Shown here in pieces: positions 53,801 to 56,800 of a DNA stretch of 64,000 bases. Every line of letters starts with the position of its first letter. The stretch's first letter is position 1. The stretch lies in the NCBI RefSeq assembly GCF_003018255.1, contig NZ_CP027440.1. One strand, given 5' to 3'. Position numbers: made by a program. The DNA comes from Escherichia coli (lineage in GTDB: Bacteria; Pseudomonadota; Gammaproteobacteria; Enterobacterales; Enterobacteriaceae).

Positions 53801-56800
53801 TTAGAGAGGATATCGGGTGCGCGATTGGGAATATAACCCAGTTCATCAAGAGCGGCGGCAATCTTGCCGCGTAGAGCGACGGAAACCTGCTCCGGGTTGC
53901 GTAAAAAACGGCTGACCGTCATTTTGGTCACGCCTACACGGTCAGCCACATCCTGAAGTACGGGTCTTTTCTTTTTCATCGTCCTGAAGGTACAAAAGAG
54001 ATAGATTCTCTTAGTTTAACACGGACGCATCAGAACCTTCCCGGGGAAAACAGTGCTTGTTTACAATTATTAGATATACACTAAATCAATTGCATCGCAT
54101 TGTGCTAACGACACGGCAAAACCCCGGAAGCGTACATCAGCACGCGACCGGAGCGAGCGAGGAAGCCTGCAAAAAGGCAGGCTTCAAAAATGCCGTTGAG
54201 CTTTAAACCGGCGGCAGATCGAACAGTAACACTTCGCTGTCGCTATCCGCATGGATGGAGATTGCCTGCTCATCCCAGATTGCCAGACCATCGCTGGTCG
54301 AGGCTTTCACGCCGTTAATGGTGACATTGCCTTTCACCACCTGGATCCAGACGCGGCGTTCAGCGGCAATCTGATGTACCGACTGCTCATCTTTCAGCAG
54401 CGCCCAACGATACAGTTCCATATCCTGATGCACTTTCAATGAACCATCTCGCGCATCCGGCGAGAGCACCAGCTGTTTGCCCTGTACGGCATCGAAGCGA
54501 CGCTGTTCATAACGCGGTGTAATGCCGTTTTCTTCAGGCATGATCCAGATCTGATACAGATGCAGACGCTCGGTGCTGCTTGGGTTGTACTCTGAGTGAC
54601 GAATACCCGTACCCGCACTCATAATCTGGAACTCGCCCGCCGGAACCTGCTCTTTATTGCCCATGCTGTCCTGATGCTCAACAGTACCTTCCAGCACGTA
54701 GGTCAAAATTTCCATATCTTTATGCGGGTGAGTGCCGAAGCCCTGCCCTGCTTCAATCACGTCGTCGTTAATCACGCGCAGCGCGGAGAAGCCCATAAAG
54801 TTCGGGTCGTAGTAGTTGGCAAAAGAGAAAGTATGCCAGGAGTCCAGCCAGCCATGATTTGCATGACCACGTTCATTTGCTTTGCGTAAGTAGATCATTT
54901 GTATTCGCCCCCTGAATGTTTTCGATGGGCTTAGTGTGGACCCGATCTGCCTGGGATGATAGAGGGTGAAAATTGACCCCTCTGTTCAAAAAAATTGAAC
55001 TATTAGAGGGGCCATCAAACTTACTTCGCGAGAGTCACTGTGGAGGGAGAAGCTTGCTCAAATCCGCGTTCAAGGATTTCCAGATTGGTAAGAACTTCAG
55101 ATTCCTTGACGTAATTTGGCGCACCGTTGGTGATGGTTTGATACAACGCATCATAAACGCGCCCGTAATCGCCCATCTCCGGCTTTATCTCTTCTCTGAC
55201 CGTCACGCCCTCGTCATTGACATACTCCAGCACACCGACCGAATCATCCGCCGCGAATCCCGGTTCGCCCGGCATAATATTAGCCTTGAGGCTGGTTTCC
55301 TGCTGGTCGATACCGTATTTAATAAACGAACCTTTCTTACCGTGAACGATAAATTTCGGATAATCGATTTTCACCAGATGGCTGGTTTTGACGATGGCTT
55401 TCAGGTCGCCATAAAACAGCTGCGCTTCAAAGGTGTCGTCAGGATTGGCTTTATTGCGCAGGCTGCGGATGTCATAAGCGACGTGATCCGGGCGACCGAA
55501 CAGAGAAATAATCTGGTCCATCGTATGCACACCAAGGCCATAGAACGCGCCATCCTGCGGCAGCCCAGGTTTGGTTTCTGTCACCGGGCGGTAATAGTCA
55601 AAATGGCTTTCCACTTCGACAATCTCTCCAAGCTTGCCGCTTTCAATCGCTTTTTTCGCTGTCAGGAAGCAGGAATCAAAGCGACGATTCTGATATGGCG
55701 TGACGGTCAGCCCTTTACTTTTCGCCAGAGCAAACAGCTCTTTCGCCTGCGCAAGCGTCGGAGTGAACGGTTTTTCGACCAGCACATTTTTCCCGGCTTC
55801 CAGCGCGCGCTTCGCGTACTCGAAGTGGCTGTCCGCATGGGTGCAGACAACAACCAGCTTAACATCGGGATCGTTTAGCACTTCGTCGAGATCGCTGGTG
55901 AAATGGATATGGGAATAAATGGGAGCCTGTTCTTCCGGCTTCGCATGGCGACGAAAAATATGCGCGACATGCCAGCTATCCTTGCGGTTAAGTACATACG
56001 GCAGATGGTAACGGGTGGTGCTTTTGCCGAAGCCAATAAAGGCGCAGTTGATGACCATGATTTCGTCCTTTTTAAGGTGATTATTTACACCTTAGCGCAA
56101 AGCGGACGTGGTTCCTACTGGAGTGCGCATAACGAACACAAGCACTTCCCGTGGATAAATTGAAAACGAAAGATCAAAAAAAAAGCCAGCACCCGGCTGG
56201 CTAAGTAATACTGGAAGCAATGTGAGCAATGTCGTGCTTTCAGGTTCTCCGCGAGGGTCTTCCTGATCGCGAGACAATAATAATCATTCTCATTCGCACT
56301 TGTCCAACACTTTTTGCAAAAAAATGCATTTGACTCGCATTTGAAAGTCAATGATGTTGAAAGGGACATTTACCCCAAAGAGGACAAAGGAATGAGTGAG
56401 ATAGTGATACGCCACGCAGAAACACGGGATTACGAGGCCATCAGGCAGATTCACGCCCAGCCGGAGGTGTATTGCAACACACTACAACTACCTCATCCTT
56501 CAGAAGGCTGGTGGCCAGAAAGATTGAAAGATCGCCAGGGGTTTAAACAACTGGTTGCCAGCATTGATGGCATCGTGGTGGGTCATCTTTTCATTGAGGC
56601 TTATCAAGGCCCACGCCGTAGTCATGTTGCAACTTTTGGTATCTGTGTTGACTCCCGCTGGCACAACCGCGGCGTCGCCAGCGCCCTGATCCGCGAATTG
56701 ATTGAAATGTGCGACAACTGGTTACGGATAGATCGTATTGAGTTGACGGTGTTTGCAGATAACGCCCCGGCAATCGCAGTCTATAAAAAATTCGGCTTTC

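What the first reader, a model, noticed from the sequence alone, without database searches (positions are those of the whole stretch)
54150..54195. Stem-loop without a U-tract between gntR and yhhW
gaagcctgc-aaaaag-gcaggcttc is a perfect 9-bp inverted repeat lying downstream of yhhW on its strand and upstream of gntR. There is no flanking U-run on either strand, so it is not a classic intrinsic terminator; it may be a protein-binding palindrome or an RNA-stability element.
Basis: seen in the sequence. Interest (0 to 1): 0.2.

Follow-up and report, generated by a model that had tools for sequence, protein, structure and literature searches.

The report
Hairpin inside a decayed ERIC repeat
The 9-bp palindrome between yhhW and gntR is real, but it is one piece of a 127-bp copy of ERIC, a well-known small mobile repeat of enteric bacteria, which about 80% of E. 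coli genomes carry at this spot; this is an ordinary finding.

Summary
GAAGCCTGC-N6-GCAGGCTTC sits at 54162-54185, is a perfect 9-bp inverted repeat, lies 17 nt downstream of the yhhW stop and upstream of gntR (both on the minus strand), and has no U-run 3' of the stem on either strand.

It is not a free-standing element. It occupies positions 17-40 of a 127-bp ERIC/IRU repeat (54075-54201, minus strand) that begins 2 nt after the yhhW stop codon. The copy aligns end to end with the published E. coli ERIC consensus (83/122 identical; local score 50 against 18.7±2.6 for shuffles). Copies at the same site in Citrobacter braakii and Salmonella are closer to the consensus (102/127).

The element is absent from about 20% of E. 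coli genomes, from E. albertii and from most Enterobacteriaceae. Those carry a 92-105 bp spacer with a different hairpin.

The ERIC core hairpin (54121-54154) is conserved in all copies at this site. The perfect 9-bp hairpin exists only in Escherichia. In this copy it replaces the long-range arm pairing of a canonical ERIC.

Its function is inferred, not shown. Most likely it is a transcribed structure in the yhhW 3' UTR. No 3' end maps in this spacer in the one Term-seq list I could read. Interest is low.

The parts
54162..54185 (-). H1, the reported perfect 9-bp hairpin (loop 6). It occupies positions 17-40 of the ERIC copy.
   Evidence: The exact 31-mer around it is present in 4230 of the 4349 E. 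coli genomes that carry the element. The full stem exists only in Escherichia.
54075..54201 (-). A 127-bp ERIC/IRU repeat copy, decayed, that begins 2 nt after the yhhW stop codon.
   Evidence: It aligns to the published 127-nt E. coli ERIC consensus (PMC2759123). The local score is 50 against 18.7±2.6 for shuffles. End to end, 83/122 positions are identical. Copies at the same site in other genera are up to 102/127 identical to the consensus. The element is present or absent among E. coli genomes.
54121..54154 (-). H2, the ERIC central core hairpin (7+6 bp, -22.8 kcal/mol). This is the region that the ERIC1R and ERIC2 primers target.
   Evidence: In the 8 copies at this site, 93% of cells are paired. 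Primer sequences were verified.
54118..54121 (-). A short U4 run straight after H2 (GGGGUUUUGCC). This is the only terminator-like feature in the spacer, and it is below the scan's threshold.
   Evidence: It was not called by the terminator scan. The consensus ERIC has GGGGAUUC at this position.
54080..54108 (-). TTAGCA-17-TTTAGT, the gntR promoter sequence proposed from genomic SELEX. It lies inside the ERIC right arm.
   Evidence: Listed for gntR in the yhhW-gntR spacer by Shimada et al. 2014 (PMC3946193). I located it in the sequence. It is a prediction only, and no TSS data were found.
54034..54042 (-). Surviving right arm (GGGAAGGTT) of the hairpin that follows yhhW in ERIC-less genomes. 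Its left arm has decayed in this allele.
   Evidence: In the short allele the intact hairpin folds at -17.7 kcal/mol.
54013..54021 (-). TGTTAAACT, an extended -10-like motif upstream of gntR that is conserved in all genera whether or not the ERIC is present.
   Evidence: GTCCGTG(N)TAAACT is invariant in the alignments. Its promoter role is inferred.
54203..54205 (-). The yhhW stop codon (TAA).

Best explanation
The palindrome is a lineage-specific local hairpin inside a decayed copy of ERIC (also called IRU or RU-1). ERIC is a 127-bp miniature inverted-repeat element of Enterobacteriaceae.

Shown here:
- The copy lies 2 nt after the yhhW stop codon, upstream of the gntR promoter region.
- It is present in about 80% of E. 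coli genomes.
- Its central core hairpin (H2) is retained.
- Its left terminal repeat and the long-range pairing between the two arms are lost.
- In Escherichia, several substitutions and two 1-nt indels turned a 5-bp AAGCC/GGCTT stem into the perfect 9-bp stem (H1).

Inferred mechanism:
- The element is transcribed as the 3' UTR of yhhW mRNA, or as part of a yhhW-gntR read-through RNA. No canonical terminator follows yhhW in this allele.
- H1 and H2 fold as two stable adjacent hairpins.
- The AU-rich right arm stays single-stranded, which is where reviews place the RNase E site of ERIC.
- Cleavage or weak termination downstream of H2 would leave the hairpins as barriers to 3' exonucleases on yhhW mRNA.
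- H1 itself may have no selected function. It may simply result from template-switch 'correction' of a quasi-palindrome.
For: Identity as ERIC:
- The published consensus was obtained.
- The local alignment scores 50 against 18.7±2.6 for shuffles, maximum 27.
- The end-to-end alignment spans consensus positions 1-127, and the copy is exactly 127 nt long.
- The ERIC1R and ERIC2 primer sites are recognisable in the core.
- The consensus is a dispersed multicopy family in E. coli, with a median of 13 places per genome.

Presence or absence at the site:
- 4348 of the 5424 E. coli genomes with a match carry the long spacer. The rest have a 92-bp spacer.
- In the 80 species loci fetched, most have 90-105 bp spacers. 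ERIC-homologous long spacers occur in Escherichia sp. MOD1, C. braakii, K. spallanzanii, S. enterica subsp. arizonae and subsp. diarizonae, and strain RIT714.

Remodelling of the copy:
- The consensus and the C. braakii copy fold as one long hairpin. The window copy folds as H1 plus H2, with its 3' ~28 nt unpaired.
- H2 is 93% paired across the 8 copies at this site. H1 is complete only in the three Escherichia sequences.

ERIC as a transcribed RNA element that affects mRNA decay: reviews PMC3184786 and PMC10969869.
Against: - No direct data show that the element is transcribed from yhhW or that any 3' end forms at H1 or H2. The curated Term-seq list of Adams et al. 2021 has no minus-strand 3' end in the spacer under three conditions. 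That list holds only about 1000 dominant ends per condition, and yhhW may simply be weakly expressed.
- This copy is only 68% identical to the consensus. Its left terminal repeat is degenerate, and it does not cross-hit other ERIC copies by BLAST.
- H1 is nearly invariant among E. coli carriers. That could reflect constraint, or merely the shallow divergence within the species.
- I could not read the primary ERIC papers (Wilson & Sharp 2006; De Gregorio 2005).
Confidence: 0.85

Rival explanations
1. The compound structure H1+H2 followed by UUUU acts as a weak, non-canonical intrinsic terminator of yhhW. It would have replaced the ancestral hairpin that the ERIC-bearing allele lost.
For: - H2 is GC-rich (-22.8 kcal/mol) and is followed directly by UUUUGCC.
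- In Escherichia the consensus GGGGAUUC has become GGGGUUUU or GGGGUUUG.
- The left arm of the ancestral post-yhhW hairpin has decayed in most ERIC-bearing alleles. That fits relaxed constraint after its job was taken over.
Against: - The scan's criterion of at least 5 T in 8 nt is not met, and nothing is called here.
- No minus-strand 3' end lies in the spacer in the curated Term-seq list.
- This reading assigns the function to H2, not to the reported palindrome H1.
Confidence: 0.2
2. The palindrome is a binding site for a dimeric DNA-binding protein that regulates gntR or yhhW.
For: It has perfect dyad symmetry, lies about 110-185 bp upstream of the candidate gntR promoters, and is nearly invariant among E. 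coli carriers.
Against: - The site is missing altogether in about 20% of E. coli and in most Enterobacteriaceae, which still have the same yhhW-gntR arrangement.
- The symmetry is broken in every non-Escherichia copy.
- No second copy of the motif exists in the window or elsewhere in the genomes.
- It derives from a mobile repeat.
Confidence: 0.03
3. The ERIC has been co-opted as the gntR promoter region in ERIC+ strains (TTAGCA-17-TTTAGT in its right arm), and H1/H2 insulate it from yhhW read-through.
For: - Shimada et al. 2014 list TTAGCA-17-TTTAGT as the constitutive RpoD promoter of gntR in this spacer. I find it at 54108-54080, inside the ERIC.
- SELEX peaks for minor sigma factors also fall in this spacer.
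Against: - The hexamers were chosen by inspection under a low-resolution SELEX peak.
- The proposed -10 lacks the A at position 2, and the promoter scan finds nothing.
- A TGnTAAACT motif nearer to gntR is conserved in all genera, including those without the ERIC.
- No TSS data could be retrieved.
Confidence: 0.15

Closest known systems
ERIC / IRU / RU-1 (enterobacterial repetitive intergenic consensus; Sharples & Lloyd 1990; Hulton et al. 1991; Wilson & Sharp 2006)
   Same: - The length is 127 bp.
- It aligns end to end with the published E. coli consensus.
- The central core inverted repeat is conserved.
- The location is intergenic, next to a stop codon and inside a transcribed region.
- It is present or absent among strains and species.
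- Some copies at this site carry internal insertions of about 70 bp (L023, L029).
   Different: - Identity to the consensus is only 68%.
- The left terminal inverted repeat is degenerate.
- The element no longer folds as one long hairpin.
- Positions 17-40 form a private perfect 9-bp hairpin that the consensus and the non-Escherichia copies at this site lack.
- It is not annotated in the K-12 RefSeq record.
Rho-independent (intrinsic) terminator
   Same: A stable GC-containing stem-loop just downstream of a stop codon.
   Different: - No U-tract lies 3' of H1 on either strand. The T5 run lies 5' of the stem.
- H2 has only U4.
- No mapped 3' end was found in the list I could read.
REP/BIME extragenic palindromes
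   Same: Transcribed intergenic hairpins at the 3' ends of genes that can stall 3' exonucleases. Several Citrobacter species carry REP-like units (GCCGGATAAGACGCG...) at exactly this yhhW-gntR site.
   Different: The sequence does not resemble the REP unit (GCCGGATG...). H1 is single-copy in the genome.

Membership tests
ERIC / IRU repeat | Sequence homology to the 127-bp ERIC consensus over its whole length | tested here: met
   The local score is 50 against 18.7±2.6 for shuffles, with 53/76 identical. The global alignment covers consensus positions 1-127 with 83/122 identical. The C. braakii copy at the same site is 102/127 identical.
ERIC / IRU repeat | Conserved central inverted repeat (the core targeted by primers ERIC1R and ERIC2) | tested here: met
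   H2 at 54121-54154 is 93% paired in the 8 copies at this site. The primers were verified. By my own count the window copy matches them at 16/22 and 15/22 positions.
ERIC / IRU repeat | Unit length of about 127 bp | tested here: met
   54075-54201 is exactly 127 nt when bounded by homology to the C. braakii copy and to the consensus.
ERIC / IRU repeat | Terminal inverted repeats, and folding as one long imperfect hairpin | tested here: inconclusive
   The right end is retained (GTGTATA against consensus GGGTATA). The left end is mutated (GCTCAAC against TATACCC), and the long hairpin is not predicted for this copy. Both features are present in the copies at this site in C. braakii (L015) and strain RIT714 (L069). 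I read this as a decayed copy.
ERIC / IRU repeat | TA target-site duplication at the ends | tested here: inconclusive
   The element ends in TA and is followed by TCT, which matches ...TTTA|TCTC in the empty site. The left junction is too diverged to read.
ERIC / IRU repeat | Dispersed multicopy family in the host genome | tested here: met
   The consensus finds a median of 13 places per genome (range 2-22) in 5425 E. coli genomes. The window copy is too diverged to cross-hit them, and no second copy lies in the window.
ERIC / IRU repeat | Insertion polymorphism at the same site in different genomes (mobility) | tested here: met
   The element is present in 4349 of 5426 E. coli genomes and absent from the rest. 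It is also absent from E. albertii and from most of the 80 species loci.
Intrinsic terminator | U-rich tract immediately 3' of a GC-rich stem | tested here: not met
   The sequence 3' of H1 is CUCGCUCGC on the minus strand and AAAAAUG on the plus strand. The scan finds no terminator in the spacer.
Intrinsic terminator | RNA 3' end mapped at the site | tested here: not met
   No minus-strand 3' end lies between K-12 positions 3578727 and 3578949 in Supplementary file 1 of Adams et al. 2021. That list holds dominant ends only, so this is weak negative evidence.
Transcription-factor operator | Conservation together with the regulated genes, and recurrence of the motif | tested here: not met
   The motif is absent from most genomes that have the same yhhW-gntR arrangement and is single-copy. 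Protein binding itself cannot be tested with these tools.

The most novel reading that the evidence does not exclude
In the Escherichia lineage a decayed ERIC has been domesticated. Its left arm would have been reshaped, by template-switch perfection of a quasi-palindrome and then by selection, into a dedicated 9-bp RNA hairpin. Together with the core hairpin, this hairpin would define and protect the 3' end of yhhW mRNA, while the right arm would supply an extra gntR promoter. ERIC+ and ERIC- E. coli would then differ in how yhhW and gntR expression are coupled.
Probability: 0.1. Interest if true: 0.35.

Novelty: already known. Interest (0 to 1): 0.12.

Why it matters
It matters little. ERIC repeats have been known since 1990-91 and are the basis of ERIC-PCR typing. 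The practical value is in annotation:
- This spacer carries no repeat feature in the K-12 RefSeq record.
- The palindrome should not be read as a regulatory site.
- A published gntR promoter prediction falls inside a mobile repeat that one E. coli genome in five lacks.

The 80/20 polymorphism gives a natural pair of alleles for testing what a transcribed ERIC next to a stop codon does to the flanking genes.

Tried and rejected
- Rfam scan of 53900-54300 at E up to 10 gave only chance-level miRNA and plastid matches.
- The promoter and terminator scan of the spacer called nothing there. Its one hit is inside gntR.
- BLAST of the window's own 148-bp segment against 5426 E. coli genomes found only the copy at this same site, so the repeat family was not visible that way. 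It became visible only through the longer spacers of other genera and the published consensus.
- The K-12 RefSeq annotation has no feature in the spacer.
- Primary ERIC papers were not available: Wilson & Sharp 2006 and De Gregorio 2005. I therefore could not check whether this copy is already catalogued, or which orientation class (A or B) it belongs to.
- Several sources of 3'-end or TSS data either held no usable supplements or had no entry for this locus: Dar & Sorek 2018, SMRT-Cappable-seq, SEnd-seq, Conway 2014, Thomason 2015, Cappable-seq and Kim 2012.
- A literature search for yhhW with gntR and terminator returned nothing relevant.
- REP identity was rejected by inspection, because there is no GCCGGATG-type unit here.
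- The 49-aa TTG-start ORF on the plus strand across the element (54057-54206) was not pursued. ERIC consensus sequences are known to carry fortuitous ORFs (PMC2759123).

Full report
**1. The observation**

The window is an E. coli chromosome segment with gntU, gntK, gntR, yhhW and yhhX all on the minus strand. The sequence GAAGCCTGC-AAAAAG-GCAGGCTTC lies at 54162-54185. yhhW stops at 54203-54205 and gntR starts at 53979, so the hairpin begins 17 nt after the yhhW stop, inside a 223-bp spacer.

The hairpin is a perfect 9-bp inverted repeat with a 6-nt loop. As RNA it folds at -15.9 kcal/mol on the minus strand and -17.1 on the plus strand. No U-run follows the stem on either strand. In this window a T5 run precedes the stem on the minus strand, and K-12 has CTTT there. 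The terminator scan calls nothing in the spacer.

Perfect hairpins of 9 bp or more are enriched in the window: 11 distinct sites (19 nested hits) against about 2 hits expected. This particular palindrome is unique in the window.

**2. The surroundings**

On the yhhW-sense strand a second hairpin, H2 (54121-54154, 7+6 bp, -22.8 kcal/mol), follows 7 nt after the reported hairpin H1. H2 is followed by UUUUGCC.

A megablast of the spacer against 5426 complete E. coli genomes showed a length polymorphism. 4348 genomes have the long spacer. About 1076 have a 92-bp spacer in which roughly 158 bp, including H1 and H2, are replaced by about 27 bp that form a different hairpin, AACCTTCC...GGAAGGTT.

**3. 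Related sequences**

A scan for YhhW relatives returned 80 species loci, L004-L083. gntR follows yhhW directly in all of them. Most spacers are 90-105 bp. They contain a hairpin of the form (GCG)CAACCTTCCC-loop-GGGAAGGTTG(CGC) followed by an invariant GTCCGTG(N)TAAACT.

Long spacers homologous to the window's extra segment occur in six loci: Escherichia sp. MOD1, Citrobacter braakii, Klebsiella spallanzanii, Salmonella enterica subsp. diarizonae and subsp. arizonae, and strain RIT714.

Their central parts matched the ERIC-PCR primers that I recalled from memory. I then verified those primers in the literature. Both sequences occur together in 246 papers and are labelled ERIC1R and ERIC2.

**4. 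Test against the ERIC consensus**

Delihas 2007 (PMC2759123, Table 1a) prints the 127-nt E. coli ERIC (RU-1) consensus of Wilson & Sharp 2006.
- Local alignment to the window's minus strand scores 50, against 18.7±2.6 (maximum 27) for 300 shuffles, with 53/76 identical.
- A semi-global alignment spans consensus positions 1-127 with 83/122 identical.
- The C. braakii copy at the same site is 102/127 identical, and the RIT714 copy is 92/126.
- Bounded by these alignments, the window element is 54075-54201, exactly 127 nt, beginning 2 nt after the yhhW stop codon.
- The consensus is a dispersed family in E. coli, with a median of 13 places per genome.
- The window's copy is too diverged to cross-hit those places, and the window holds no second copy.

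Rfam has no match. The K-12 RefSeq record annotates nothing in the spacer.

**5. What H1 is within the element**

H1 covers element positions 17-40, in the left arm. H2 covers positions 48-81, the conserved core.

The consensus and the C. braakii copy fold as one long imperfect hairpin that pairs the two arms and the terminal repeats. The window copy does not fold that way. Its left terminal repeat is mutated, H1 forms locally, and the AU-rich 3' ~28 nt are unpaired.

Across the eight copies at this site, H2 is 93% paired. The full H1 exists only in the three Escherichia sequences, and the MOD1 strain has one mismatch. In the other five copies, 4 of the 9 pairs are broken, leaving at most a 5-bp AAGCC/GGCTT stem.

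So the perfect palindrome arose in the Escherichia lineage through several substitutions and two single-base indels. Template-switch correction of a quasi-palindrome is a plausible mutational route, but that is my inference.

Within E. coli carriers the 31-mer around H1 is exact in 4230 of 4349 genomes. One variant I looked at changes the closing G-C pair to G·U.

**6. How it most likely works**

Reviews state that ERICs are miniature inverted-repeat elements. They are often co-transcribed at the 3' ends of genes, and in Yersinia they change mRNA levels by exposing an RNase E site in a terminal repeat (PMC3184786, PMC10969869). From memory of the abstract of De Gregorio et al. 2005, which I could not read, elements next to stop codons form a distinct orientation class.

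In this window the element starts 2 nt after a stop codon. No canonical terminator separates yhhW from gntR. In most ERIC-bearing alleles the left arm of the ancestral hairpin downstream of yhhW has decayed.

My best reading is as follows, and all of it is inferred:
- The element is transcribed with yhhW.
- H1 and H2 fold as adjacent stable hairpins.
- Weak termination at H2-U4, or cleavage in the exposed AU-rich right arm, produces a yhhW 3' end that these hairpins protect.
- H1 may equally be a neutral by-product.

The only 3'-end list I could read is the curated Term-seq list of Adams et al. 2021, which holds about 1000 dominant ends per condition. It has no minus-strand end in the spacer. 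That is weak negative evidence.

**7. Rivals**

- A protein-binding palindrome is very unlikely. The site is missing from most genomes that have the same gene arrangement, and it is single-copy.
- An ERIC-borne gntR promoter has been predicted (TTAGCA-17-TTTAGT; PMC3946193). It lies at 54108-54080, inside the right arm. However, a TGnTAAACT motif at 54021-54013 is conserved in all genera, with or without the ERIC. I could obtain no TSS data.

**8. Evolutionary note**

Between ERIC+ and ERIC- E. coli, the flanking 3 kb differ in at most 10 of 150 nt per window, mostly 0-5%. The last 35 nt or so of yhhW, by contrast, carry 9 differences.

The copies at this site in different genera share paired changes in the core relative to the consensus: CCAG/CTGG has become CCGG/CCGG, and CTTAC/GTAAG has become CGTAC/GTACG. 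This points to one old insertion whose two haplotypes have persisted or been exchanged. It remains unresolved.

**9. Verdict**

It missed the main point, which is that the palindrome is part of a known repeat family.

The kind is already known. I could not check whether this particular copy is already catalogued. Interest is low.

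Noticed in passing
window 53903-53930 (minus strand), inside gntR codons ~17-26: A terminator-like hairpin, TGACC-AAAATGAC-GGTCA followed by GCCGTTTTTT, lies 76 nt into the gntR ORF. 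It coincides with a strong Term-seq 3' end at K-12 3578650(-), found in two conditions and classed as 'internal' by Adams et al. 2021. This may be premature termination or attenuation within gntR.
   Followed up: partly
window ~54252 and ~54310 (plus strand), antisense to the yhhW 3' end: Adams et al. 2021 list plus-strand 3' ends at K-12 3578999 and 3579057, antisense to yhhW. A plus-strand transcript reaches into the 3' end of yhhW; where it starts, and whether it crosses the ERIC, is unknown.
   Followed up: no
L012-L017, L026, L035 (Citrobacter spp.), about 3197-3330: At the same yhhW-gntR site several Citrobacter species carry REP-like palindromic units (GCCGGATAAGACGCG...CGTC..CATCCGGC) instead of an ERIC. 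These also replace the left arm of the ancestral hairpin. The site looks like a hotspot for small-repeat insertion.
   Followed up: no
L023 and L029 (~3280-3355); L033 (~3235-3310): The ERIC copies of K. spallanzanii and S. diarizonae carry an internal insertion of about 70 bp just after the core (AATGAGGGACATCC...GAATTTGTC). S. arizonae carries a different insertion of about 75 bp in the left arm. From memory, these fit the 'long ERIC' forms described in the literature.
   Followed up: no
window 54203-54240 (yhhW 3' end) compared with L001/L002, L004, L005, L007, L008: ERIC+ and ERIC- E. coli haplotypes differ at 9 positions in the last 35 nt or so of yhhW, including a Val/Ile change. The surrounding 3 kb differ in at most 10 of 150 nt per window, mostly 0-5%. 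The ERIC- type matches E. albertii, and the ERIC+ type is closest to S. arizonae. This suggests old or imported haplotypes.
   Followed up: partly
window 54186-54190, 54103 and 54201: The window is not K-12. It differs from MG1655 at 4 positions in the spacer, including the T5 run next to the hairpin where K-12 has TCTTT. Over the 148-bp ERIC segment (54055-54202), only 104 of 4349 genomes are at least 99% identical to the window.
   Followed up: partly
window ~56175-56269 (minus strand): By coordinate transfer from the K-12 record, the small RNA gene ryhB lies between yhhX and yhhY.
   Followed up: no
window 50940-50965, 13838-13860, 59527-59552, 261-288, 29424-29448: These are other perfect hairpins of 9 bp or more in the window. 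Examples are GCCCGGTAGC...GCTACCGGGC just downstream of gntU and the REP-like TGCCGGATGCATCGCATCCGGCA. None was examined.
   Followed up: no
window 54057-54206 (plus strand): A 49-aa TTG-start ORF runs through the ERIC copy. ERIC consensus sequences are known to contain open frames (PMC2759123). No evidence for expression was sought.
   Followed up: no
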